From the NCBI GenBank assembly GCA_036848375.1, contig DAIUKG010000001.1:128110-192109 (forward strand): a DNA stretch of 64,000 nucleotides, written 5' to 3'. Under the pieces are notes generated by a model. It had not been told where the DNA came from, did not search any database, and worked only from the letters and a program-made list of their open reading frames with translations. A program made the position numbers and the translations under genes. Below, one piece after another: positions 37,041-49,917 of the stretch. Origin of the DNA: Spirochaetota bacterium. Lineage in GTDB: Bacteria > Spirochaetota > UBA4802 > UBA5550. Every line of letters starts with the position of its first letter. The stretch's first letter is position 1.

Positions 37041-39077
37041 TCAGGCAGGGATAGGAAGGTATATGGTAAATTCCACACCCTGCTCCCGATTAGCCACAGT
37101 GATTTCTCCATTATGATCCTTGATTATTCTTTTGACAATCGCAAGGCCGAGCCCCACACCGGTAATCTTCGTCGTAAAAAAAGGTTCAAAAATAATATTG
37201 GGATCAGGTTCTTCAATGCCGGTTCCGGTATCGTATATTTTAAGAATAATCCTGCCATTATCATTGTCAGTAAATATCCCGATTGTTCCTCCCGGGAGCG
37301 TGGCATCAATACAGTTCTGGATCAAATTCAATACGACCTGTTTCATCTGATTGAAATCGGATTTAACCAGAGGAACATCATCCTTTAAATCCAGCTCAAT
37401 ATGAATCCTCTTTTCCAATAAAAGATTACGCAACAACTTGACCGTGTCATTGATGACATCGTTGATATTATTGAATTCCCTGATATATTTCGCCGGTTTG
37501 GTGAAGTCCATCACATTGGAAAGGGTTCCTTCAAGCCTCTCTGATTCCTTTAAAATAATTTCAGCGGCGGCGACTATTTTATCTCTGTTTTTCGTCGGGT
37601 CCTTGGAAAGCTGTGAAATTCTGCTGGCGTAACCGCCCATGGTTACCAGCGGATTTCTTATCTCGTGAGCGATATGGGCAGCTATGCGTCCCACAGCGGC
37701 CATCTTTTCAGATTCCACAATAGCTTCCTGCCGGTCCTGAATTTTCTGCATTTCCTTTTTTACATTGCCCAGATTGTCATAACTTTCGATTGACAGCGCA
37801 GCCTGCGAAGCAAAGATCGAAAGAAGCTCAATCAGGTCATTCCCGATGGGGGACTGATTGAATTTATTATCTGCTATTATTATTCCTATCGCCCTGTTCC
37901 CCACGATAAGGGGGACGACAACAAACTCTTTAACATCCATAAATGATGCGATTTGACTTCCGACAACAGGATCATTCCATGAATCAAATATATGGATATT
38001 TTCAATATTCTTATATGACCTGGAAAAGATCGAGTCATCCTTCAGCGGGAAGGTTGTGCTTAAAACTTTCTCAAGCAGCTTGAGGCCATGCTGTTTTACT
38101 TCAGCATCAACCCTGTTCCCCGGATCCGTATTCGGAGTGGCGCTCCATATGTCAATCGCCTCTTCAAATGAATCAGGGCCGACTGCCATTTTACCGACAA
38201 GAGAATCCCCGTCAGAGAGAAAAAGCATGGCCCTGTTAAAACCGAGGCCGGAACCTGACGTAACACCGGTCAGTATCGTGTATAAAACCCTTTCTATTTC
38301 TGCGTCCCTCTGAATCGATTCAGATATCTGGTTCATCAGTGATATCTGGTAATCTTTCCTCAATTTCGACGTCACATCATCAATCAGCAGGATGATCTCT
38401 TTACGGCCCTGCGCAATAATACTGGATATTTTAATATCAGCGATTATTGAAACCTTGTTAATTGACAGGAGGTGCGTCTTTTCGAGGATGATCGAATCAC
38501 CGCTTCCCCTCGCCTGTTTGATCCCCCCTTTCAAACGCGCATTGACAAAATAAAAAATATCGTCAATCCTCTTGCTTTTAATGTCATCCTGATCAAACTG
38601 GAATTTATTGCAGAAATTTTCAGTAGCGAAAACGATCCGTTCATATTCATTGAGGACAATAAAATATGAACTGATGGAAAAGATAATGCTGTTATAGACT
38701 TCATTGAATTTCTCGATTTCTACTTTCTGGGCCGTGAAAATGCTGTCCAGATGCTTGCCGAGAATTCTGATCTCTTCATAAACATCGCTCAATTCATCAT
38801 CATGCTTGATATCGATTTTTGGAAGGATAAACTTCCCCTTTTTAAAATCATATAAAGCGTCCATTACGACATTCGCCCGTTTTTTATAGAAAATCCAGCT
38901 TCGGATAAAATACATTATGCTGCGGACAAAAAGCAGGATCAGAAGGAGCAGAAGAAAATAGAGAACGGTATTTGAGAAAAAACTGATAAAAATAAAATAA
39001 ATAAAAAAACATCCCAATAAAAAATCCGGTATCACAAACAGAACAAGCCTGAAGAGGGTTCTTTTTCTTATTTTCAT
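37041..39077 (-). CDS. sensor histidine kinase (N-terminal TM segments, GAF domain, HisKA, HATPase_c)
   Basis: 678 aa; H-box AHIAHEIRNPL, ATP-lid DTGTGI...GLGLAIV; GAF-like central region; immediately upstream of the receiver gene. Confidence 0.85.
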   Translation of the reverse strand: MKIRKRTLFRLVLFVIPDFLLGCFFIYFIFISFFSNTVLYFLLLLLILLFVRSIMYFIRSWIFYKKRANVVMDALYDFKKGKFILPKIDIKHDDELSDVYEEIRILGKHLDSIFTAQKVEIEKFNEVYNSIIFSISSYFIVLNEYERIVFATENFCNKFQFDQDDIKSKRIDDIFYFVNARLKGGIKQARGSGDSIILEKTHLLSINKVSIIADIKISSIIAQGRKEIILLIDDVTSKLRKDYQISLMNQISESIQRDAEIERVLYTILTGVTSGSGLGFNRAMLFLSDGDSLVGKMAVGPDSFEEAIDIWSATPNTDPGNRVDAEVKQHGLKLLEKVLSTTFPLKDDSIFSRSYKNIENIHIFDSWNDPVVGSQIASFMDVKEFVVVPLIVGNRAIGIIIADNKFNQSPIGNDLIELLSIFASQAALSIESYDNLGNVKKEMQKIQDRQEAIVESEKMAAVGRIAAHIAHEIRNPLVTMGGYASRISQLSKDPTKNRDKIVAAAEIILKESERLEGTLSNVMDFTKPAKYIREFNNINDVINDTVKLLRNLLLEKRIHIELDLKDDVPLVKSDFNQMKQVVLNLIQNCIDATLPGGTIGIFTDNDNGRIILKIYDTGTGIEEPDPNIIFEPFFTTKITGVGLGLAIVKRIIKDHNGEITVANREQGVEFTIYLPIPA

Positions 39078-39887: not shown

Positions 39888-40516
39888 CCGAAGATAAGTC
39901 TGACAGAATAATAAAAAAGCTGCTTAAACACTACGGGCAGGCCGTTCCTGATCTCAGGTTTGCCGGCCTGTACCAGCTCGCGGTATCGGTTGTTCTCTCT
40001 GCCCAGACAACGGATGTACAGGTCAATGCCGTCACCCCTGAACTCTTCAAACACTATCCGGGATTTGCTGAACTTTCAAAAGCCGGAGCAGGCCATGTCG
40101 AAAAAATAATCAGAAGCACCGGATTTTACCGGAACAAAGCGAAAAACATCATCGCTCTTGCGAAGGATGTCATGATAACCCATGAAGGAAAACTTCCCGC
40201 AAGCAGGGAAGAGCTCATGTGCCTGCCCGGCATCGGAAGAAAATCCGCCAACGTGATCCTGTCAGTAGGCTTTGGCGTTCCCGCGCTGGCTGTCGACACC
40301 CATATATTAAGGATAGCCAACAGGCTCGGCTACTGTAAAAGCGACAACCCTGATGAAGTCGAAAGAGCAATAACGTCCCTGGTTCCTGAAAAGCTGTGGA
40401 CGAGAACACACCTGGTTTTAATTAAACACGGAAGGATGATCTGCAAGGCAAAAAACCCCCTGTGCGCCGAATGCCCGATCAGGGATGAATGCTTCTTTGA
40501 CGGTAAAACTTCATAA
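39884..40516 (+). CDS. nth: endonuclease III (DNA glycosylase/AP lyase)
   Basis: 210 aa; HhH-GPD motif LPGIGRKSANVIL, 4Fe-4S cluster CKAKNPLCAECPIRDEC; 4-nt overlap with rdgB. Confidence 0.92.
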   Translation: MTEDKSDRIIKKLLKHYGQAVPDLRFAGLYQLAVSVVLSAQTTDVQVNAVTPELFKHYPGFAELSKAGAGHVEKIIRSTGFYRNKAKNIIALAKDVMITHEGKLPASREELMCLPGIGRKSANVILSVGFGVPALAVDTHILRIANRLGYCKSDNPDEVERAITSLVPEKLWTRTHLVLIKHGRMICKAKNPLCAECPIRDECFFDGKTS

Positions 40517-41858
40517 AGGTCACGATAACGTCACTGTCATTCTCGTTAAGCTCCGTCGTCCCGACCGGATCCAGGCCGGTAATTTTTTTCAACGATAAGT
40601 ATGCCTCATGGGTGACGATGTCATTGGTACCCATCAGTTCACCTGCAAGAAACGGCACCATTTCCACGTTCCCCGGCAGCGTGATCACCTTCATGATCCA
40701 TATCTTGAAAAAATCATTTCCCTGCCGGTAGCGTCCGAGCAGGTCATTATAATAATTGCTGTATCGCCTGGTGTATGAGATCAGGTTCTTTGCCCGGATC
40801 AGCGACATTCCATCATCTAGCGATTTTATCTCCGCGTATGAAATAATTCTCTGATAGGTAAGGTCTATATCGTGTTTCATTATATAGCGAACAATATTTT
40901 CACCGGTATTCATCGATGAGGACACGAATATATTTTTCCATGTCTGCTGACTGAAATTTATTTCTTCATCATATTTTCGCGAGTAAAAGATAAGCTCATC
41001 AACGAGGTCCCATTTCCCGGTTTTTGTTATTATTTGCTCAAGCCCGTTCAGGGGAAAAGAATATCCCATTTTAAGAAGAATTCTTGCAGCTACAATTCTG
41101 GGATGCGAACTGTAATCGGAGCAAATATAAATCAGCGAATATACCCCGATAAAAGAGAAATACATCATAAAGCCAACAACAAAAGATATCATCAGTGATT
41201 TCAGTATTTTTCTTTTTTCCGAATTGAACTCATATATAAGGAAAAGAAGAAACGCGAAAAACTCAACAAGCTTTATGACCGTGACCGGAATTCCCAGTGG
41301 AAGATACCGGTATATTGATTTATAAAGAATAAAATGAAGGATGGCAAAACCAAGAAAAACCGGGATAGTAATTCCGGGCTTCTTTTTCCATTTCAGTATA
41401 ACGAGAAGAATGATCGCCAGAAAAACAATATTGGAATTTCTGCCGGTTATTATCTCCATGAGAGAGGTAACCGGCCAGTAGGGAAGCTTGATGTCTTCTA
41501 TCAGGGTATAAAAGATCACTGAAAGATAAATAAGCACGACCGGGAAAACCCTGGTCACAAAAAAAAGAATGTATATCCCCTTTTTCCCGTAAAGGCCGCT
41601 GTATTCTCTTTTCATCCCCACAATGTCAAGATTGGAGAAGTTGTACATGATTAAAAAAGAATACAAAAAAAGATAGACCTTCACGATCAGTGAAATGCCT
41701 GACCACTGGTAATTCAGGTTAAAAATCAGGTTAACGCCGAAAAGAAGAATCAACAGATAGATAAATGTTGAAAGTTTTGACAGCTGGTTTTTTATAATTT
41801 CTATTGCGCTCATGGCTCTACCTGAAATGAGCAACCCTGGGAAGGCCGGCATAATCAT
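40479..41858 (-). CDS. polytopic membrane protein of unknown function (N-terminal multi-TM region and ~160-aa soluble C-terminal domain)
   Basis: 459 aa; the start overlaps prmC by 41 nt (alternative ATG at 41813 lies 4 nt after the prmC stop); no recognisable family motif. Confidence 0.55.
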   Translation of the reverse strand: MIMPAFPGLLISGRAMSAIEIIKNQLSKLSTFIYLLILLFGVNLIFNLNYQWSGISLIVKVYLFLYSFLIMYNFSNLDIVGMKREYSGLYGKKGIYILFFVTRVFPVVLIYLSVIFYTLIEDIKLPYWPVTSLMEIITGRNSNIVFLAIILLVILKWKKKPGITIPVFLGFAILHFILYKSIYRYLPLGIPVTVIKLVEFFAFLLFLIYEFNSEKRKILKSLMISFVVGFMMYFSFIGVYSLIYICSDYSSHPRIVAARILLKMGYSFPLNGLEQIITKTGKWDLVDELIFYSRKYDEEINFSQQTWKNIFVSSSMNTGENIVRYIMKHDIDLTYQRIISYAEIKSLDDGMSLIRAKNLISYTRRYSNYYNDLLGRYRQGNDFFKIWIMKVITLPGNVEMVPFLAGELMGTNDIVTHEAYLSLKKITGLDPVGTTELNENDSDVIVTFMKFYRQRSIHP

Positions 41859-42645
41859 TCAGCACTGAAACAGAAAAGCCGGCACGCGCTCCATCGTGCA
41901 TAACAAATTCCTTCATATCACTGCCTATTTCCAAAATCAGATGTCCGTCATCTTCAAGATATTCCCGCGCTGAAAGAATGATCTTCTGAATGATGTCCCT
42001 GCCCCGGTTTTCTGCGAAAAGGGCGGCTTCCGGCTCGTAAAAAAGTTCTTTTTGCAGCTCAGAGGTGACACCCCGGTCAATATAAGGGGGATTGGAAACA
42101 ATCACATTAAATTTCATGCCGGCAAAGGGATGAAAAAGGTCCCCCCTGTAAAAAATAATCGATTTATCTCCCAGCAATGCCTTCGCATTTTTCCGTGCAA
42201 CGGCAAGGGCACCTGCTGACACGTCGGAAGCGAAAACGCCGAGGTCCCTTCTTGAATATTTCACGGAAACGGCCACCGCTCCCGAACCGGTTCCAAGATC
42301 GAGCACTGTTTCATTCATTCCCGCATAATACAAGGCCAAATCGACAAGAAGTTCCGTTTCAGGGCGGGGAATGAGAACATGCCGGTTAACGATAAAATCG
42401 AGGGAATAAAATTCTTTAATTCCGGTGATATAGGCAACCGGCTCCCCATCCCCGCGCCTTTTTATCATACCGGTGAAAAGGGCGCATTCATTATCGGTAA
42501 GAATGCGCTCTTTGTCAACAACAAGCCTGTATCGGTCGGTTCCAAGCACATGGCCGAGAATGACTTCAGCGTCGAGCAGCGGCGTCTCGATGCCGGACCG
42601 GGTCAATTCTGCAAGCGATGATTTCAACGCATCAGAAACATTCAC
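41818..42645 (-). CDS. prmC: release-factor glutamine methyltransferase PrmC (HemK)
   Basis: 275 aa; SAM-binding GTGSG and catalytic NPPY motif (VSNPPYI). Confidence 0.92.
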   Translation of the reverse strand: MNVSDALKSSLAELTRSGIETPLLDAEVILGHVLGTDRYRLVVDKERILTDNECALFTGMIKRRGDGEPVAYITGIKEFYSLDFIVNRHVLIPRPETELLVDLALYYAGMNETVLDLGTGSGAVAVSVKYSRRDLGVFASDVSAGALAVARKNAKALLGDKSIIFYRGDLFHPFAGMKFNVIVSNPPYIDRGVTSELQKELFYEPEAALFAENRGRDIIQKIILSAREYLEDDGHLILEIGSDMKEFVMHDGARAGFSVSVLNDYAGLPRVAHFR

Positions 42646-42654
42646 CGCCGTGCC

Positions 42655-43725
42655 TCAGGAGTTGATGACCTTCAGTTTCTGTTCGATTTCCGCTTTTCTG
42701 AGCGCGTCAATGATATCATCCATCTCGCCCGCGAGAAACGATTCGAGCGAATACAGGGTCACGCCAACGCGGTGGTCGGTCACCCGCGACTGGGGGAAAT
42801 TATAGGTGCGGATGCGCTCGCTTCTGTCACCGGAGCCGACCTGGGAACGGCGGAGGTCGGACTCTTTTTCAAGGCGCTCCTCCAGCTCAATTTCATAGAG
42901 ACGGGCTCGAAGAACGCGCAGGGCCTTCGCCTTGTTTTTATGCTGGGACTTTTCATCCTGGCAGGTAACGATCATTCCCGTGGGGATGTGCGTTATGCGG
43001 ACAGCGGAATCGGTCGTGTTGACCGACTGGCCGCCGTGCCCCGAAGAACGGTACACGTCGATCCTGAGGTCGTTGGGATCGATCTCGATTTCGCTTTCTT
43101 CAGCTTCCGGCATGACCGCGACAGTCACGGCCGAAGTGTGGACACGCCCGCCTGACTCGGTTGTCGGAACACGCTGCACGCGGTGCACTCCCGACTCATA
43201 TTTGAGGCTGTCATAGGCCTCTTCGCCGCGGACCGAAAATATCATTTCCTTGTAACCGCCGATCTCGGTCTGGTTCGCTTCAATGAATTCGATTTTCATC
43301 CCCTTGAGATCGGCATACCGCGTGTACATCCTGAACAGGTCGGCCGCGAAAAGCGCGGCCTCATCCCCGCCGGTTCCCGCGCGTATCTCCATGATAACGT
43401 CCTTACCCGAGCTGGGGTCCCTGGGAAGAAGCATTATCAGCAGTTCTTCTTCGTACTTGACGATCTTTTCCTCAAGCAGGGCTATTTCGCCGCGGAGCAT
43501 TTCACGCATCTCTTCATCGCGCTCATCTCTCAGCAGCGCGCGGCTTTCTTCAAGCTCCCTTGCGTATTTCAGGTATTCTTCATATTTCCGGACAACAGGC
43601 GCAAGCTGGGAACGCTCACGGTTGAGGTCTCGGTACCGGTTCATGTCAGAGACAATGTCAGGCCGGGACAGTTCGTTTTCGATCTCACTGAGCCTTCGGG
43701 CCATCACTTTAATTTTATCTTCCAT
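42655..43725 (-). CDS. prfA: peptide chain release factor 1
   Basis: start placed at MEDKIKVMARRL (the track's GTG extension overlaps tRNA-Arg); GGQ motif (SSGHGGQSVNTTDSAVR), PxT-class RF1 domain. Confidence 0.92.
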   Translation of the reverse strand: MEDKIKVMARRLSEIENELSRPDIVSDMNRYRDLNRERSQLAPVVRKYEEYLKYARELEESRALLRDERDEEMREMLRGEIALLEEKIVKYEEELLIMLLPRDPSSGKDVIMEIRAGTGGDEAALFAADLFRMYTRYADLKGMKIEFIEANQTEIGGYKEMIFSVRGEEAYDSLKYESGVHRVQRVPTTESGGRVHTSAVTVAVMPEAEESEIEIDPNDLRIDVYRSSGHGGQSVNTTDSAVRITHIPTGMIVTCQDEKSQHKNKAKALRVLRARLYEIELEERLEKESDLRRSQVGSGDRSERIRTYNFPQSRVTDHRVGVTLYSLESFLAGEMDDIIDALRKAEIEQKLKVINS

Positions 43726-43751
43726 AAACTCACTCTTTACTGAAAAAAAAG

Positions 43752-43767
43752 AGCGGCATATACCGCT
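43752..43767 (-). terminator. small hairpin flanked by A8/T10 runs between tRNA-Arg and prfA
   Basis: AAAAAAAAGAGCGG-CATATA-CCGCTTTTTTTTTT; only ~25 nt upstream of the prfA start. Confidence 0.4.
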
Positions 43768-43779
43768 TTTTTTTTGATG

Positions 43780-43853
43780 CGCTCCCGGGAGGACTCGAAC
43801 CTCCGGCACACGGTTTAGGAAACCGCTGCTCTATCCGCCTGAGCTACGGGAGC
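43780..43853 (-). tRNA. tRNA-Arg (anticodon CCU)
   Basis: cloverleaf read by hand: acceptor GCTCCCG/CGGGAGC, D arm GCTCAGGCGGATAGAGC, anticodon stem GCGGT/ACCGT with loop TTCCTAA, T arm GGAGGTTCGAGTCCTCC; 74 nt. Confidence 0.8.
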
Positions 43854-43908: not shown

Positions 43909-44553
43909 TCAAGAGAACATACTCTTTCGTTTTGACGAAACGACACGCTGAAAGTCCCTTATGTTCCGGACTACGATACGGTCGCCATAGAGTTCAATTT
44001 TGTCAAGGCGGGATAAATGTGTCAATACTTTTTGCACGTCCCCCTCGGCCATACCGGCCCAGCTTGCGACCTGCGGTGCATTGACATAGAGTGTTATTTC
44101 ATTTTGAAGATCGAGATGAGGGTCCTGCTCTGAAAGCATGTTAAGAACATCCATAACCTTCAGTTGAGGGTCTTCCAGAAGGAGGATCATGAGCCTTCTT
44201 TTCGCGTCATAAATCCTTTTGGAAAAAATGACCAGGAGCTTGTATGCCAGCTGCGGATTGCCCTGCAGAAGCGTATCAAAATTATCCCGGTGAAACTTCA
44301 GCAGTTTGACCCGGTCCATCGCTATCGTGGTCGCTGACCTGGGCTCCTCTTCAAGTATGGCCATCTCGCCGAAGACATCCCCGTCGCTGAGAACGTCAAT
44401 CGTCTTTTCGCGGTTGTTGATTATCTTGACGATCTTCACTCTTCCCGACTGGATGAAATAGAATTCATTCCCGGGTTCAAATTCGCAGAAAATGATCTCA
44501 TTGGGCGAATATTCAACGCCGAACCTGCTGAAAAATCTTTCATCGAGAATCAT
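43909..44553 (-). CDS. Crp/Fnr-family regulator with canonical cyclic-nucleotide-binding domain
   Basis: 214 aa; phosphate-binding cassette [19 protein letters not shown]; C-terminal HTH-like segment. Confidence 0.8.
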
Positions 44554-44564
44554 CGTTTATCCCT

Positions 44565-45746
44565 TTACCCCTGCAGTTGACGTATGCGCGCTGCGGCCTG
44601 CTGGCTTACCGAATCCCCGGGAGCCATTGAAGCCGCTTTTTTATAATACACCAGTGCTTTGTCCTTTTGCTTGGCCGATTCAAAAATCTGGCCCACATAA
44701 AAAAAGGCTTTTTTAACATTTTCTGATCGGGGGAAGTTTTTAATCACCGTGCTGAATGAGGCCATGGCTTCACGGGGCTTCCCCTGTTTCATATAACATC
44801 GCCCGATCTCAAAGTGGGAATTTTCATAAATCCTTTTGTCGTCATCGCTGACGATATCATCTGAGCTTATTATCTTTTCGTACACTTCCAGGGCCTGATC
44901 AACATGGCCTTCGTCAAAAAGCTCCCTGGCGTTTTCAAATAGATGGGGGATGAAATTCTCGTCAACCCCGCCCGGCTCATCAATCGTAAAATCGTCAAGA
45001 TCGCCCAGAGAATCATCGGAAAGAAAATCGTCCATTTCATCAGAAAGGGACCCGGACCCGGCATCCGCACCTGCCGGCGCAGGCTCGAAATCACTGCCGC
45101 CTTTGTCTTCCAGATCAAAATCATCGAAGCCGGCCGAATCCGGCTGTATATCATCCATCGCCTCCATGCCTGAGACGGGAACTGCGGTGTTTCCGGAAGC
45201 TATTGCATTGATGCGGTCCATTGCTGTTCCGGCATATTTGGAATCAGGATAATACTCCATCAGCTTTTTATATGCGTACTGCGCCTGCTGGAACACCGCG
45301 GTTTTAAAATAGTATTCACCGATGCGGAAGAGCTCCGCGTCGGGATTGATCGTGTCTTTTTCTCCCAGCACTGTCCTCTGGGTTTTATTGATGCGCCTGA
45401 GCTGGTTGCTGAAAACGCGAAGCATTTTGCGGACAACATTCACGTTGCGCAGGACCAGGCGTTCGAAATCAGAAAGGCTCAGGACAAGAACGATGGTCTC
45501 GCCTATAGTCTGCGCGGTCTCTTCCCTCGGGTAACGGCCGAGCGCTGACTTGACCCCGAAAAACTCACCCTGGCGGACTTCTTCTTTTACCTCTTCGCCG
45601 GTGTCCAGCTTGACCGAAGTGAGGACGACCCTGCCGCTTTTAAGCACGTAGATGTATTCGCTCTTATCACCTTCGAAATAAATAATTGACCCTGATTTGT
45701 ATGTTCTGGGTGCGATTCCGGATGGACTGCTCATTCCGTTTGCCAT
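44565..45746 (-). CDS. cNMP-binding-domain protein with acidic linker and C-terminal TPR repeats
   Basis: 393 aa; N-terminal cNMP-binding fold with divergent PBC (FFGVKSAL...PREETAQT); Asp/Glu-rich linker; TPR-like C-terminus. Confidence 0.7.
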   Translation of the reverse strand: MANGMSSPSGIAPRTYKSGSIIYFEGDKSEYIYVLKSGRVVLTSVKLDTGEEVKEEVRQGEFFGVKSALGRYPREETAQTIGETIVLVLSLSDFERLVLRNVNVVRKMLRVFSNQLRRINKTQRTVLGEKDTINPDAELFRIGEYYFKTAVFQQAQYAYKKLMEYYPDSKYAGTAMDRINAIASGNTAVPVSGMEAMDDIQPDSAGFDDFDLEDKGGSDFEPAPAGADAGSGSLSDEMDDFLSDDSLGDLDDFTIDEPGGVDENFIPHLFENARELFDEGHVDQALEVYEKIISSDDIVSDDDKRIYENSHFEIGRCYMKQGKPREAMASFSTVIKNFPRSENVKKAFFYVGQIFESAKQKDKALVYYKKAASMAPGDSVSQQAAARIRQLQG

Positions 45747-45763
45747 TGTCTGATCCTCGCCCC

Positions 45764-46996
45764 TTAAACCTCGAATTCCACCGGCAGGAATGGAAATTCT
45801 TTCTTAAAGCCAACGGCCCTGCTGATCCGTTTTAACAGCCCGATTACATCCCCGATGATGATTCTCTCAACGCCGTCAATAACGATCTCCTGGTATTTGA
45901 CGCCCAGGGACTTAAATACCGGCGCATAAGCCGCTTCTCCGTAGACCGGAAGGCCGTCAATGACCACGAGAAGAACGTCCTTCAGTTCAGCGGAAACGAC
46001 CGATGAGGCGGCGCTCCCGCCCCTGTTTCTGAAAACAGTGAGGTCCGCATGGTAACCTTCCCTGACCATGCCGTGATTTTTAAGCCAGAAAGCCTTCGCC
46101 GGATTTACCGTCACCATTTTAACAATTTCTTCATCAGGCAGTTCGCCGCCGAAGAGCTTTTTGTATAATGATTTGTCGAATTTCATTTCATGAAGGATAT
46201 TCAGGCCTCCGGACATGGGAGAGTCCGTGCCGATGCAGACATTGACGCCCTTCTTTCTGAGCATGTTCACATTAGCCGTTTTTGAATACATGAAATAATT
46301 CGAATCCCCGCACCAGACAACCGACGCGCCGCGCTGTTTGATAAGGTCCATGTCCGAATCCGAAAACGATAGCCCATGAACAAGAACGGAATGATCGCCA
46401 AGCCCGCCCTGCTTATCAAGGGTAACAACGTCCTTTCGTGTTTCAGCGTCGAACCCTTCAGCGATGTGGGTCACGAAGGGAATGCCCTCTTTCACCGCTT
46501 TCTGGTATTCGACCGAGATGCCATCGCCCCACGCGAGAGCGAATGACGTGATCGAATGGGCAAGGGCATATTCCCTGATTGCCTTGGTCGGCAATAAATC
46601 ATAATATGGTTCAGCAACGAAGTGGGGGATGTGGTCTGACACCGTGGTGACCCCGGACACAAGGTTTCGGTAGCCTCCGAGAAGGTACAGGTCCCGGTTT
46701 TCAATCTGCTGACGCTCCTGGTAGACCGGGGCGCTCTTTAAATCATTGTCCCAGGGCAGCCAGTTTTCATACGGGCCGTTTCCCACTTTCGGGAAATAAT
46801 TACCGAGAAGATGATCATGACTGTTGATAAGGCCGGGAGTCAGTATGCCATCGTCAATTCGCAATTCAACGGAATCGTTTCCTTCAGCCCTGCCGATAGT
46901 AAGAATCGTGTCCTTTTCAATGGTGACATTCTTTTTTTTCTGATGTGCTTCAGGGTTCAGAATATCAACGCCAGAAATTATCCATTTTTTCATCAT
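45764..46996 (-). CDS. amidohydrolase-superfamily deaminase (cytosine/guanine/SAH-deaminase-type; HxH...HxxE...H...D)
   Basis: start placed at MMKKWIISG (AAAGGAA SD); INSHDHL, HIAEG (His + catalytic Glu), VLVHG, GTDS metal/catalytic motifs. Confidence 0.8.
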   Translation of the reverse strand: MMKKWIISGVDILNPEAHQKKKNVTIEKDTILTIGRAEGNDSVELRIDDGILTPGLINSHDHLLGNYFPKVGNGPYENWLPWDNDLKSAPVYQERQQIENRDLYLLGGYRNLVSGVTTVSDHIPHFVAEPYYDLLPTKAIREYALAHSITSFALAWGDGISVEYQKAVKEGIPFVTHIAEGFDAETRKDVVTLDKQGGLGDHSVLVHGLSFSDSDMDLIKQRGASVVWCGDSNYFMYSKTANVNMLRKKGVNVCIGTDSPMSGGLNILHEMKFDKSLYKKLFGGELPDEEIVKMVTVNPAKAFWLKNHGMVREGYHADLTVFRNRGGSAASSVVSAELKDVLLVVIDGLPVYGEAAYAPVFKSLGVKYQEIVIDGVERIIIGDVIGLLKRISRAVGFKKEFPFLPVEFEV

Positions 46997-47019
46997 TAAT
47001 TCCTTTATAAGGGAAAAGT

Positions 47020-47200
47020 AAAATCTTTTCAATAAGTATTCTGTAAATGACAGCCGCGACAAACACCTGAAGGCAGCCACTTGGGAAATGCACTGTTCCC
47101 GGGCTCTGCAAGCAAGCCCCGCATCCTCAATATAATTTTAACTCCCTCAACGCGACTGCCTGAAGACATCACCATATCGGCGGCCCGATTCTTATAAACA
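47020..47200 (-). promoter_or_regulatory. GC-rich, highly structured ~180-nt 5' leader of the deaminase operon (candidate cis-regulatory RNA)
   Basis: GC-rich island in AT-rich intergenic DNA; predicted long-range stem CAGUCGCG/CGCGGCUG enclosing hairpins GGGCU-N9-AGCCC and GGGAA-N8-UUCCC; lies between the promoter and the SD. Confidence 0.3.
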
Positions 47201-47203
47201 AAT

Positions 47204-47232
47204 AATCTATTACCAACAATTTGATGCGTCAA
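47204..47232 (-). promoter_or_regulatory. candidate sigma70-like promoter (TTGACG-17-TAGATT) for the deaminase operon
   Basis: hexamers read on the minus strand ~200 nt upstream of the start codon. Confidence 0.35.
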
Positions 47233-48813: not shown

Positions 48814-49917
48814 TTACCAGACAAATCCGGCTGAAATATTCACCGCGACCCCGGTAAGCAGATAATAGGAAACCTGGACATCAGCAACAACGACCGGGCC
48901 TATGGTTATGCCGATCCCGCCCATAAACCTGCCGTCAACATAAAAGGGCGAGCCCTTGGTGGAGTTGTCTCCCCTGATATATCCCGGGGTGACGTCGCCC
49001 CATGATGAAGTGTCGGCACCGGTGACCGATACGCCGCCGTCGGCCTCCGCCACAGTGGAAGATTCGCCGTAATTGAAATCAATCCCCACACCGAGGCTGA
49101 TGTTGAGAAAATACAGTATTCTAAGTGAGGTGACAATATCGACGGGAACCGTGTAGGTCTTCATGGTCAGGCCCATTTTGATCGACGGGTCAACAACCAC
49201 ATCACCGCTGTATATGTCTTCACTGAAATCTCCCACAGTTTTTTCTATTTTAATTTTATAAAAGATATCGTTCTGCTGGTAGTTGAACCCGAACCCGAGC
49301 GACAGGCCGCGCCACAGAAACGAGCCCTTGCCGAACCTGCGCGCGCCTATGATCGAATAGTTCACCCCGATCCCCACGTTCATGGTCTCGTAATCCAGCG
49401 TATACCCGAACAGGGGATATGACATGTCGTACATGAAAAACTTGACGTTCAGGTACCATCCCTTGGCCTTTTCGCTGAGCCAGCCCAGGTGAATTCCCAG
49501 GTTCACCGACCCGGACGGGGCGATACCGGCCTGCGCGTCGCCTTTGTCCTCAACGTCTTTCAAGGCCTGGTCAAGCGCGTAATAGTCGAGCGTCGGCATC
49601 TGGGCAGCGATCGTGAGGCCCCCCAGGAGCGCGATGTTGTCATATCCCTGGTAACCCCACATGGAGGCTGCATGGCTTGCGTAGGTGTTTGAATCAGCCA
49701 CTGCCGCAGCCAGCTTGTCCTGGTTTCTGTACTTGGCAACATTCTGGTTCGCTTGTTCCAGTGCATCGTCAAAAGCATCATTAATGGCATCCTGCGCAGC
49801 GAGAGATATTCCGGAAAACTGGGGAGCCCTGCCGGTAAAGGTCACCGCGAATATATTTTCAGTTGTCAGTGCCACAAAAAACAGTGAAACAGCGAAAAAT
49901 AAGAGATATTTTTTCAT
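48814..49917 (-). CDS. outer-membrane beta-barrel-type protein (signal peptide, C-terminal aromatic residue)
   Basis: 367 aa; signal peptide MKKYLLFFAVSLFFVALT; alternating hydrophobic pattern; ends ...SAGFVW. Confidence 0.55.
   Translation of the reverse strand: MKKYLLFFAVSLFFVALTTENIFAVTFTGRAPQFSGISLAAQDAINDAFDDALEQANQNVAKYRNQDKLAAAVADSNTYASHAASMWGYQGYDNIALLGGLTIAAQMPTLDYYALDQALKDVEDKGDAQAGIAPSGSVNLGIHLGWLSEKAKGWYLNVKFFMYDMSYPLFGYTLDYETMNVGIGVNYSIIGARRFGKGSFLWRGLSLGFGFNYQQNDIFYKIKIEKTVGDFSEDIYSGDVVVDPSIKMGLTMKTYTVPVDIVTSLRILYFLNISLGVGIDFNYGESSTVAEADGGVSVTGADTSSWGDVTPGYIRGDNSTKGSPFYVDGRFMGGIGITIGPVVVADVQVSYYLLTGVAVNISAGFVW

What the first reader, a model, noticed from the sequence alone, without database searches (positions are those of the whole stretch)
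43909..47232. Operon coupling a deaminase-type amidohydrolase to two cyclic-nucleotide-binding proteins: candidate cNMP-signal module
Three minus-strand genes are separated by only 17 and 11 nt. The first is an amidohydrolase with the complete HxH / HxxE / H / D motif set of the cytosine-, guanine-, SAH- and cAMP-deaminase subgroup. The second is a cNMP-binding domain with a divergent phosphate-binding cassette fused to an acidic linker and TPR repeats. The third is a Crp-like regulator with a canonical cassette (FGEMAIL...PRSATTIA). A cAMP deaminase (CadD) is known inside this amidohydrolase subgroup. Placing a deaminase in one transcription unit with a cNMP receptor/scaffold and a cNMP-responsive transcription factor suggests a self-contained system that senses and degrades a cyclic nucleotide. 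The unit is preceded by a long structured leader and followed by tRNA-Arg and prfA.
Basis: partly seen in the sequence, partly recalled or inferred. Interest (0 to 1): 0.7.

Follow-up and report, generated by a model that had tools for sequence, protein, structure and literature searches.

The report
Conserved spirochaete amidohydrolase–cNMP receptor operon
Three tightly packed genes (an uncharacterised deaminase-type metal enzyme, a cyclic-nucleotide-binding/TPR protein and a Crp-type regulator that is the counterpart of the syphilis bacterium's TpCRP) form an operon conserved across the spirochaete phylum, which makes a cyclic-nucleotide-degrading role for the enzyme a reasonable but still untested idea.

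Summary
Three minus-strand genes lie 17 and 11 nt apart: a 409-aa amidohydrolase with all deaminase-type catalytic residues, a 393-aa CNB + acidic linker + TPR protein, and a 214-aa Crp-like regulator. tRNA-Arg and prfA follow.

The adjacency is strongly conserved. In 80 species-level Spirochaetota genomes, 77/77 usable loci have the CNB-TPR gene next and 72/73 have both. In more distant relatives (~40% identity, Treponema-type) the figures are 40/45 and 28/30, with unrelated flanks.

Genes 2 and 3 are orthologues of T. pallidum TP0261 and TP0262 (TpCRP, a reported promoter-binding CRP homologue). T. pallidum has an SH3-domain protein at the enzyme's position.

The enzyme belongs to a new clade of COG0402-like deaminases. 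Its nearest structures are MTA/SAH and adenosine deaminases. It reaches no characterised equivalog threshold.

One relative is fused to a TIR domain beside a TIR–cyclase–CNB gene. Others are fused to SAM methyltransferases or sit beside radical-SAM genes. This points to an adenine-nucleoside or nucleotide substrate.

cNMP deamination is plausible (~0.35) and untested. The "structured leader" is not supported. The claim that CadD lies in this subgroup is probably wrong.

The parts
47204..47232 (-). Sigma70-like promoter (TTGACG, 17 nt, TAGATT) of the three-gene unit
   Evidence: Consensus scan. The block TTTTnCTTGAC plus a TA-rich -10 is the only conserved element upstream in L001, L007, L022, L066 and L037. 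Function is inferred.
46994..47203 (-). About 200-nt 5' untranslated leader, not conserved and not significantly structured
   Evidence: Fold z = -0.37. No Rfam hit. Length and sequence vary between close relatives. No E. coli-type CRP site and no shared palindrome in 107 upstream regions.
45764..46993 (-). 409-aa deaminase-type amidohydrolase, a new clade of the COG0402-like group. Catalytic residues are H59, H61, H176, E179, H206 and D257. Family signatures are NWLPWDNDLKS, VSDHIPHF and C-terminal GFKKxxPFLP.
44565..45746 (-). 393-aa cytoplasmic protein, orthologue of T. pallidum TP0261. It has an N-terminal CNB domain with the variant cassette GEFFGVKS[AS]LG[KR]YPREETA, one TPR-like unit, a variable acidic linker and C-terminal TPRs.
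   Evidence: Pfam. Cassette conservation over 105 orthologues. Conservation profile. 29% identity, E 1e-45, full length to TP0261, which has the same cassette.
43909..44553 (-). 214-aa Crp/Fnr-family regulator with the canonical cNMP cassette [12 protein letters not shown][TS]; orthologue of T. pallidum TP0262 (TpCRP)
   Evidence: Pfam. Full-length alignment to CRP structures. Cassette 100% invariant in 95 orthologues. 44% identity, E 8e-65, to TP0262. Relatives carry PF13545 HTH_Crp_2.
43779..43853 (-). tRNA-Arg(CCT), 55 nt after the Crp-like gene on the same strand, probably the last gene of the unit
   Evidence: ARAGORN and Rfam. The same tRNA is in the same place in 31/31 clade-A loci tested and in L086 and L087. 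tRNA-Thr(CGT) takes that place in L093 and L100.
43752..43767 (-). Terminator-like hairpin with a T-run between the tRNA and the likely prfA start (43725)
   Evidence: Consensus scan. The number of such sites in the region is not above shuffles, so this is only suggestive.
41818..43725 (-). prfA (RF1) and prmC, lineage-specific downstream neighbours, not part of the module
   Evidence: Pfam. They follow the triad in 55/63 clade-A loci but in only 3-5 of 23 loci from other clades.

Best explanation
This is a phylum-wide conserved spirochaete operon: promoter, amidohydrolase, CNB-TPR protein, Crp-type regulator, then a tRNA.

Shown:
- The enzyme is an intact mononuclear deaminase-type amidohydrolase. 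It belongs to a previously uncharacterised clade whose nearest structural relatives deaminate adenosine-type nucleosides (MTA, SAH, adenosine).
- Gene 3 is the orthologue of T. pallidum TpCRP and has a perfectly canonical cNMP-binding cassette.
- Gene 2 is the orthologue of TP0261 and has its own invariant, non-canonical cassette.
- The three genes stay together under very different flanks.

Inferred, in decreasing confidence:
(a) The three products act in one pathway (about 0.9).
(b) The enzyme deaminates a purine, most likely adenine, nucleoside or nucleotide (about 0.6).
(c) That substrate is the cyclic nucleotide sensed by the receptors, for example cAMP to cIMP. The enzyme would then quench or convert the signal that activates the Crp-type regulator. 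The CNB-TPR protein would act as a second receptor or adaptor for the regulator or the enzyme (about 0.35).

The stated confidence applies to the full chain including (c).
For: Linkage:
- Clade A: 77/77 loci have the CNB-TPR gene next and 72/73 have both genes. Other core-family loci: 40/45 and 28/30. Relatives at about 30% identity lack the neighbours (2/30).
- Flanks differ between lineages.
- Median intergenic gaps are 18 and 5 nt in clade A, and 24 and -1 nt elsewhere.

Enzyme:
- The catalytic set is invariant.
- Foldseek's best hit is the MTA/SAH deaminase 4f0r, E 3.5e-23.
- Likely counterparts of the TM0936 adenine and ribose contacts (W78, E93, H146, E179, H206, D257) are invariant.

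Nucleotide context of relatives:
- P0241 is a TIR-amidohydrolase fusion beside a TIR + class III cyclase + CNB gene with PycC and PycTIR-like matches.
- Many relatives are fused to SAM methyltransferases, whose by-product is SAH.
- The outgroup sits beside radical-SAM genes, whose by-product is 5'-deoxyadenosine.
- P0248 lies near a 2H phosphoesterase and a cyclase fragment.

Receptors:
- Both cassettes are nearly invariant.
- Orthology to TP0261 and TP0262 is established.
- Tp0262 binds tprE, tprG and tprJ promoters (PMC7864442, PMC3656149).

Precedent:
- L. interrogans CadD deaminates cAMP and quenches cAMP signalling (PMC4279170, PMC4398509).
Against: - There is no direct evidence on the substrate. 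No characterised COG0402 enzyme known to me acts on a cyclic nucleotide.
- The pocket-forming loops (residues 64-160) have no characterised counterpart.
- T. pallidum keeps TP0261 and TP0262 but has an SH3-domain protein at the enzyme's position, and no amidohydrolase appears in its protein list. The receptors therefore work without the enzyme.
- Cyclases are almost never adjacent (3 of 168 loci) and none is in the window.
- The TIR fusion is a single contig.
- Methyltransferase fusions and radical-SAM neighbours fit an SAH or 5'-deoxyadenosine deaminase equally well.
- No Crp-type operator was found upstream of the operon.
Confidence: 0.35

Rival explanations
1. The enzyme is a salvage or detoxification deaminase for a non-cyclic adenosine derivative (SAH, MTA, 5'-deoxyadenosine or adenosine). 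It shares an operon with the CNB proteins because its expression is under cNMP-Crp control, or simply rides on a constitutive operon. It does not touch the second messenger.
For: - The best NCBIfam hit is 5'-deoxyadenosine deaminase.
- JGI names many family members MTA/SAH deaminase.
- The nearest structures are MTA/SAH and adenosine deaminases.
- Relatives are fused to SAM methyltransferases or sit beside radical-SAM genes.
- In clade A the SAM-dependent PrmC lies just downstream.
- The operon ends in a tRNA gene and sits in a core chromosomal region.
Against: - Scores are far below every equivalog cut-off (at most 87 bits against at least 294), and identity to any characterised enzyme is about 20%.
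- The prmC linkage is lost outside clade A (5/23) while the CNB linkage persists.
- The methyltransferase-fused and radical-SAM-linked proteins are the roughly 30%-identity outgroup that lacks CNB neighbours.
- The TIR fusion beside a cyclase-CNB gene is nested close to the triad clade (49% identity to P0249).
Confidence: 0.3
2. The CNB-TPR protein is a cNMP-controlled adaptor that binds and regulates the enzyme and/or the Crp-type regulator through protein-protein contacts. One possibility is a heterodimer formed through the conserved helix after the CNB domain, giving an anti-activator. The enzyme's substrate is a metabolite other than the messenger, so the operon is a cNMP-gated metabolic switch.
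For: - TPR repeats are protein-interaction modules.
- The helix after the CNB domain of gene 2 is highly conserved (mean top-residue frequency 0.80). By eye it resembles the dimerisation helix region of gene 3.
- TP0261 persists with TP0262 in T. pallidum without the enzyme, so its primary partner may be the regulator.
Against: - There are no interaction data, and a complex could not be modelled with the tools.
- The enzyme's conserved C-terminal GFKKxxPFLP tail is also present in family members without a TPR neighbour, so it is not a dedicated TPR-docking peptide.
- This rival is compatible with, and not exclusive of, the best explanation.
Confidence: 0.2
3. The enzyme acts on a non-nucleoside heteroaromatic amine or halide (pterin, triazine-like, isocytosine-like or oxidised base), and the link to cNMP receptors is purely regulatory.
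For: AtzA, TrzN, isocytosine deaminase and 8-oxoguanine deaminase structures score about as well as the adenosine-type enzymes. The specificity loops are unique to the family.
Against: Candidate counterparts of the adenine and ribose contacts of TM0936 are invariant. The contexts of relatives point to adenosyl or nucleotide chemistry.
Confidence: 0.1
4. The adjacency is chance, or a lineage-specific accident of gene order with no functional meaning.
For: None beyond the fact that function is untested.
Against: The same order and orientation, with short or negative gaps, occurs in about 117 of 122 usable loci. These span enzymes down to about 37% identity and have unrelated flanking genes.
Confidence: 0.01

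Closest known systems
T. pallidum TP0261-TP0262 gene pair (TP0262 = TpCRP, a CRP homologue reported to bind and modulate tprE/G/J promoters; PMC7864442, PMC3656149)
   Same: - Window gene 3 is 44% identical to TP0262 over the full length (E 8e-65).
- Window gene 2 is 29% identical to TP0261 over the full length (E 1e-45) and has the same variant cassette, GEFFGVKSALG.[YF]PREE.
- Order and adjacency are the same.
- A LysM protein lies upstream in T. pallidum (TP0259), and a LysM-M23 peptidase lies upstream in 23 of my loci.
   Different: T. pallidum has an SH3-domain protein (TP0260) where the amidohydrolase sits here, and no amidohydrolase appears in its protein list. No function is published, to my knowledge, for TP0261 or for the three-gene unit.
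CadD, the cAMP deaminase of Leptospira interrogans (Goble et al. 2013, cited in PMC4279170 and PMC4398509)
   Same: It is an amidohydrolase-superfamily deaminase in the same phylum. It removes the cNMP signal by deaminating the base (cAMP to cIMP). It is the functional model for the hypothesis.
COG0402 MTA/SAH/5'-deoxyadenosine/adenosine deaminases (TM0936, C. violaceum Cv1032 4f0r, P. aeruginosa 4gbd, X. campestris 4dzh)
   Same: The fold, the metal ligands, the HxxE proton shuttle and the β6 His and β8 Asp are shared. These are the best structural matches. Plausible equivalents of the Trp, Glu and His purine and ribose contacts are present.
   Different: Identity is about 20%, and only the C-terminal half aligns by sequence. 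The window enzyme has family-specific insertions (WDNDLKS after W78), an invariant HDH instead of HxH with a free middle residue, and a roughly 60-residue C-terminal extension ending in GFKKxxPFLP. It fails every equivalog cut-off.
Pycsar-type cyclase + CNB-effector defence genes
   Same: In locus L082 a relative of the enzyme (40% identity to the window enzyme, 49% to a triad enzyme, P0249) is fused to a TIR domain. It lies beside a TIR + PycC-like cyclase + CNB gene. This again pairs the enzyme clade with cNMP parts.
   Different: The window operon has no TIR, no cyclase and no PADLOC hit for the enzyme or the CNB-TPR protein. It sits in a core chromosomal region. It is a housekeeping-type signalling unit, not a defence island.

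Membership tests
Amidohydrolase superfamily, mononuclear deaminase type (COG0402-like) | (β/α)8 barrel with an N/C-terminal β-sandwich | tested here: met
Amidohydrolase superfamily, mononuclear deaminase type (COG0402-like) | HxH (β1), His (β5) followed by the HxxE glutamate, His (β6), Asp (β8) | tested here: met
   H59/H61, H176/E179, H206 and D257 align with TM0936 H55/H57, H200/E203, H228 and D279. They are invariant in 62 relatives.
Characterised COG0402 equivalogs (5'-deoxyadenosine, MTA/SAH, guanine, 8-oxoguanine, aminofutalosine deaminases; chlorohydrolases) | Score at or above the curated NCBIfam cut-off of the equivalog model | tested here: not met
   Best score is 87 bits against a cut-off of 522 (5'-deoxyadenosine deaminase). 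All others are at most 86 bits against cut-offs of 294-779.
CadD-type cAMP deaminase | Homology to CadD / adenosine-deaminase family (PF00962, cog1816). The family assignment is from my memory. | tested here: not met
CadD-type cAMP deaminase | Specific deamination of 3',5'-cAMP to cIMP | not testable with these tools
   Needs an enzyme assay.
Crp/Fnr transcription factors (gene 3) | N-terminal CNB β-barrel with the Gly-Glu ... Arg-Ser/Thr-Ala cassette | tested here: met
   PF00027 at 85 bits. G62, E63, R72, S73 and A74 align with CRP G71, E72, R82 and S83. They are 100% conserved in 95 orthologues.
Crp/Fnr transcription factors (gene 3) | C-terminal Crp-type winged helix-turn-helix | tested here: inconclusive
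   HTH_Crp_2 scores only 16.3 bits against a cut-off of 27 in the window protein. However, many relatives at 74-84% identity carry PF13545. The protein also aligns through residue 197 with CRP and M. tuberculosis Crp structures. The recognition-helix residues differ from E. coli CRP.
Crp/Fnr transcription factors (gene 3) | Orthology to an experimentally studied member (T. pallidum TP0262) | tested here: met
   44% identity over 203 residues, E 8e-65. 276 bits on the orthologue HMM. The neighbour TP0261 is conserved.
Cyclic-nucleotide-binding domain proteins (gene 2) | CNB fold (PF00027) | tested here: met
   61.4 bits against a cut-off of 27.5, residues 14-101. Matches PKA RII CNB domains.
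Cyclic-nucleotide-binding domain proteins (gene 2) | Canonical cassette residues that hold the ribose 2'-OH (Glu) and the phosphate (Arg followed by Ala/Ser/Thr) | tested here: not met
   The Arg is kept (R74, 98%). The Gly-Glu is Gly-Val-Lys (V65 96%, K66 100%), and Arg is followed by Glu-Glu. The variant itself is nearly invariant, so a ligand site is likely, but its ligand cannot be assumed to be cAMP or cGMP.
Riboswitch / structured leader | Conserved sequence and structure, folding energy below shuffles, or an Rfam match | tested here: not met
   z = -0.37. No Rfam hit at E up to 1. The leader is not alignable among close relatives.

The most novel reading that the evidence does not exclude
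The enzyme founds a COG0402-type family of cyclic-nucleotide deaminases, convergent with CadD. The operon would then be a two-receptor relay. The canonical Crp-type receptor reads the primary messenger (for example cAMP). The invariant, non-canonical cassette of the TP0261-type CNB-TPR protein reads the deaminated product (for example cIMP) or a different cNMP. Base deamination would convert one signal into another rather than merely destroying it. The same enzyme clade has also been recruited, as a TIR fusion, into a Pycsar-like cyclase system.
Probability: 0.12. Interest if true: 0.85.

Novelty: new variant of a known kind. Interest (0 to 1): 0.58.

Why it matters
- Cyclic-nucleotide signalling in spirochaetes, including the syphilis and leptospirosis agents, is poorly understood. 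TpCRP (TP0262) is one of the few studied T. pallidum regulators, and its conserved partner TP0261 has no known role.
- TP0261 and TP0262 turn out to be the remnant of an ancestral three-gene operon whose first gene is a dedicated, uncharacterised deaminase-type enzyme. This gives a concrete, testable handle on how the signal is turned over and on what TP0261 senses.
- If the enzyme deaminates a cyclic nucleotide, it would be a second, independently evolved solution to signal quenching by base deamination. It would also assign a substrate to a family of more than 1,000 database proteins now labelled only 'amidohydrolase family protein'.
- If it proves to be an SAH, MTA or 5'-deoxyadenosine deaminase, the finding is ordinary, apart from an unusually tight regulatory linkage.

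Tried and rejected
- Structured leader or riboswitch: rejected.
- Autoregulatory operator: no shared palindrome in 107 upstream regions (at most 5 loci, close to shuffle level). No E. coli-type CRP site near the promoter, and window-wide counts are below chance.
- TPR docking onto the enzyme's conserved C-terminal tail: not supported, because the tail is equally conserved in family members without a TPR neighbour.
- Linkage to prfA/prmC as the real functional context: rejected, because it holds only in clade A.
- Cyclase in the window: none found by tblastn with three cyclase queries.
- Defence-system identity for the window genes: PADLOC gives nothing for genes 1 and 2 and only generic CNB similarity for gene 3.
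- Verifying CadD's family: the primary paper (PMC3880142, DOI 10.1021/cb4004628) is not held. Searches for 'cog1816' and 'cAMP deaminase' gave no family statement.
- TP0262 primary paper (PMC2698047): not held.
- The afdb50 fold library was unavailable.
- The first AF2 model from a shallow alignment was poor in the specificity loops (pLDDT 35-47 at residues 64-96). It was replaced by the model from a deeper alignment.
- I could not inspect model coordinates, so no pocket geometry or docking was possible.


Full report
**1. What is in the sequence**

ORF listing shows three co-directional minus-strand genes:
- 45764-47080. The database start is MKKW at 46993, giving 409 aa, identical to a public protein.
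- 44565-45746 (393 aa).
- 43909-44553 (214 aa).

The gaps between them are exactly 17 and 11 nt. tRNA-Arg(CCT) lies at 43779-43853. It is followed by prfA, whose real start is near 43725 because the long ORF overlaps the tRNA, and then by prmC. An AI-2E-family transporter gene lies upstream, about 290 nt away.

The window is core chromosome of an uncultured Spirochaetota bacterium. It also carries rpoB, rpoC, EF-G, EF-Tu, ClpB and NrdD.

**2. The three proteins**

Gene 1 matches Amidohydro_1 and Amidohydro_3.
- Against NCBIfam it hits only COG0402-type deaminase and chlorohydrolase models. The best score is 87 bits (5'-deoxyadenosine deaminase), against curated cut-offs of 294-779.
- H59-D-H61, H176-x-x-E179, H206 and D257 align with the metal ligands and catalytic residues of TM0936. 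They are invariant in 62 relatives.
- A first AF2 model was weak in the specificity loops. A deeper alignment gave pLDDT 94.4 and pTM 0.94.
- The family has its own invariant signatures: NWLPWDNDLKS, VSDHIPHF, LAHS, WGDG and a C-terminal GFKKxxPFLP.

Gene 2 is a CNB domain followed by one TPR-like unit, a variable acidic linker and C-terminal TPRs.

Gene 3 is a Crp/Fnr-type protein. It aligns end to end with E. coli CRP and M. tuberculosis Crp structures.

Across about 100 distinct orthologues:
- The gene 3 cassette [12 protein letters not shown][TS] is 100% invariant at G, E, M, E, P, R, S and A.
- Gene 2 has a different, equally fixed cassette, GEFFGVKS[AS]LG[KR]YPREETA. Here the ribose-binding Glu is Val-Lys, and the Arg is followed by Glu-Glu.

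**3. Conservation of the arrangement**

- A scan of one genome per species found 189 genomes with a relative. The best 80 are all Spirochaetota or Leptospirales MAGs at 61-80% identity.
- By tblastn and HMM searches of their ORFs, 77/77 loci with enough sequence have the CNB-TPR gene immediately downstream, and 72/73 have both genes.
- A profile search of 1.8 billion representatives showed a wider family, with 406 clusters at E below 1e-30.
- Context look-ups for members at about 40% identity showed the same triad with unrelated flanks. These were P0249 (a Treponema sp. MAG), P0247, P0391 and P0252.
- A metagenome scan added 80 loci. Among core-family members (at least 430 bits on the family HMM), 40/45 have the CNB-TPR gene next and 28/30 have both. 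Among relatives at about 30% identity, only 2/30 do.
- Named homologues of the second clade are all Treponema, Spirochaetaceae or Spirochaetales.
- prfA and prmC follow the triad in 55/63 clade-A loci but in only 3-5 of 23 elsewhere. They are therefore not part of the unit.
- Gaps are short or negative throughout.

**4. Link to known biology**

The T. pallidum protein FASTA in the supplement of PMC10600179 gave the sequences of TP0260, TP0261 and TP0262.
- Window gene 3 is 44% identical to TP0262 (E 8e-65).
- Window gene 2 is 29% identical over its full length to TP0261 (E 1e-45). TP0261 carries the same variant cassette, GEFFGVKSALGNFPREEN.
- Both score about 270 bits on my orthologue HMMs.
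- Tp0262 (TpCRP) is reported to bind the tprE, tprG and tprJ promoters and to raise or lower their expression (PMC7864442; PMC3656149).
- TP0260, at the enzyme's position, is an SH3-domain protein with no similarity to the amidohydrolase HMM.
- The T. pallidum list holds no 'amidohydrolase'. It does hold one class III cyclase (TP0485), further CNB proteins (TP0089 and TP0995) and a 299-aa 'adenosine deaminase' (TP0045).
- A LysM-M23 peptidase gene is the immediate upstream neighbour in 23 loci. This matches the T. pallidum LysM protein TP0259.

So the CNB pair is the conserved core, and the enzyme is an ancestral companion lost from the reduced T. pallidum genome.

**5. Clues to the substrate**

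- The highest-scoring representative outside the two triad clades, P0241, is a TIR + CarboxypepD_reg + amidohydrolase fusion. Its upstream co-directional neighbour is a TIR + class III cyclase + CNB protein. That protein matches ThsB-type TIR, PycC cyclase and PycTIR CNB models. The island also carries TIR, SLATT and DUF4062 genes.
- Many relatives at about 30% identity are fused to class I SAM methyltransferases.
- Another outgroup sits between an ETF-α/ferredoxin gene and a small radical-SAM or ThiF gene.
- P0248 lies near a 2H phosphoesterase and a cyclase fragment.
- P0246 and L127 lie beside a HIT-family gene. At the P0246 loci (L083, L084) there is also a divergent PilZ gene.
- Likely equivalents of the TM0936 purine and ribose contacts (W78, E93, H146) are invariant.

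Together these clues favour an adenine nucleoside or nucleotide substrate. They do not single out a cyclic nucleotide.

**6. Regulation**

- A sigma70-like promoter (TTGACG, 17 nt, TAGATT; 47232-47204) is the only conserved upstream element among relatives that share the AI-2E neighbour.
- The leader downstream of it is variable. It is not more stable than shuffles (z = -0.37) and matches no Rfam family.
- No shared palindrome and no E. coli-type CRP site was found upstream.
- tRNA-Arg(CCT) follows the Crp-like gene within tens of nucleotides in 31/31 clade-A loci tested and in L086 and L087. tRNA-Thr(CGT) takes its place in two Treponema-type loci. A terminator-like hairpin follows the tRNA in the window. 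The unit therefore probably runs from promoter to tRNA.

**7. Interpretation**

The functional coupling of the enzyme with the two CNB proteins is well supported.
- the canonical cassette of the TpCRP orthologue;
- the CadD precedent in the same phylum (PMC4279170, PMC4398509);
- the TIR fusion beside a cyclase-CNB gene.

It nevertheless rests on inference. I put it at about 0.35.

The main rival (about 0.3) is a non-cyclic adenosine-derivative deaminase under cNMP-Crp control. An adaptor model for the CNB-TPR protein can coexist with either.

From memory, CadD is a cog1816-type 'adenosine deaminase'. I could not obtain the paper or the sequence. If CadD did belong to this clade, the enzyme's function would already be known.

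**8. Verdict**

This is a real, conserved, previously undescribed three-gene signalling unit of Spirochaetota. It contains a new clade of deaminase-type amidohydrolases and the orthologues of TP0261 and TP0262. I found no paper describing the triad.

I rate it a new variant of a known kind, with moderate-to-good interest (0.58). The hypothesis is cheap to test with the assays listed under next steps.

Noticed in passing
window 43779-43853; L001 10136-10210; L086 7972-8044; L093 9137-9209: A rare-codon tRNA gene directly follows the Crp-like gene on the same strand. It is tRNA-Arg(CCT) in 31/31 clade-A loci tested and in L086 and L087, and tRNA-Thr(CGT) in Treponema-type loci L093 and L100. This suggests the operon is co-transcribed with a tRNA.
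   Followed up: partly
L082 5618-10079: A TIR + CarboxypepD_reg + amidohydrolase fusion (P0241) lies next to a TIR + PycC-like class III cyclase + CNB protein. The island also holds TIR, SLATT/DUF4231 and DUF4062 genes. It may be a Pycsar-like system with a deaminase component. Only a single contig shows this.
   Followed up: partly
proteins P0320, P0334, P0344, P0329 (no window coordinates); loci L134, L139, L141, L143, L146: Relatives of the enzyme at about 30% identity are fused to class I SAM methyltransferases, or sit between an ETF-α/ferredoxin gene and a small radical-SAM or ThiF gene. They may be SAH or 5'-deoxyadenosine deaminases coupled to the enzymes that make those by-products.
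   Followed up: partly
window 37041-39077 (-); L048 594-2672, L039, L050, L054-056, L061, L064, L071, L121, L122, L133: A GAF-containing histidine kinase lies about 4.8 kb from the triad in the window. Its orthologues (52-55% identity) are placed divergently, directly upstream of the amidohydrolase, in 12 other loci. GAF domains can bind cyclic nucleotides, but the ligand here is unknown.
   Followed up: partly
L014 6024-6887 and 22 other loci; T. pallidum TP0259: A LysM + M23 peptidase gene is the commonest immediate upstream neighbour of the triad, in 23 loci from both clades. T. pallidum has a LysM protein (TP0259) two genes upstream of TP0261.
   Followed up: partly
L004 12426-12517, L006, L008, L012, L015, L019, L028, L035: tRNA-SeC(TCA) lies just downstream of prmC in a subset of clade-A genomes, which implies selenoprotein use in that sublineage. 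It is absent from the window.
   Followed up: no
window 40479-41858 (-) and 48814-49917 (-): Two sizeable ORFs have no Pfam match. One is a 459-aa multi-pass membrane protein overlapping the end of prmC, conserved at 30-67% identity downstream of prmC in many clade-A loci. The other is a 367-aa protein with a signal-peptide-like N-terminus, found only in the closest relative L001.
   Followed up: no
window 42655-43809 (-): The longest prfA ORF (GTG at 43809) overlaps tRNA-Arg and a terminator-like hairpin. The real start is most likely the Met at about 43725 (MEDKIKV...).
   Followed up: partly
T. pallidum TP0045 (from PMC10600179 supplement): T. pallidum lacks the COG0402-like enzyme but lists a short (299-aa) 'adenosine deaminase'. 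Whether this is a CadD-type cAMp deaminase that substitutes for the lost gene was not examined.
   Followed up: no
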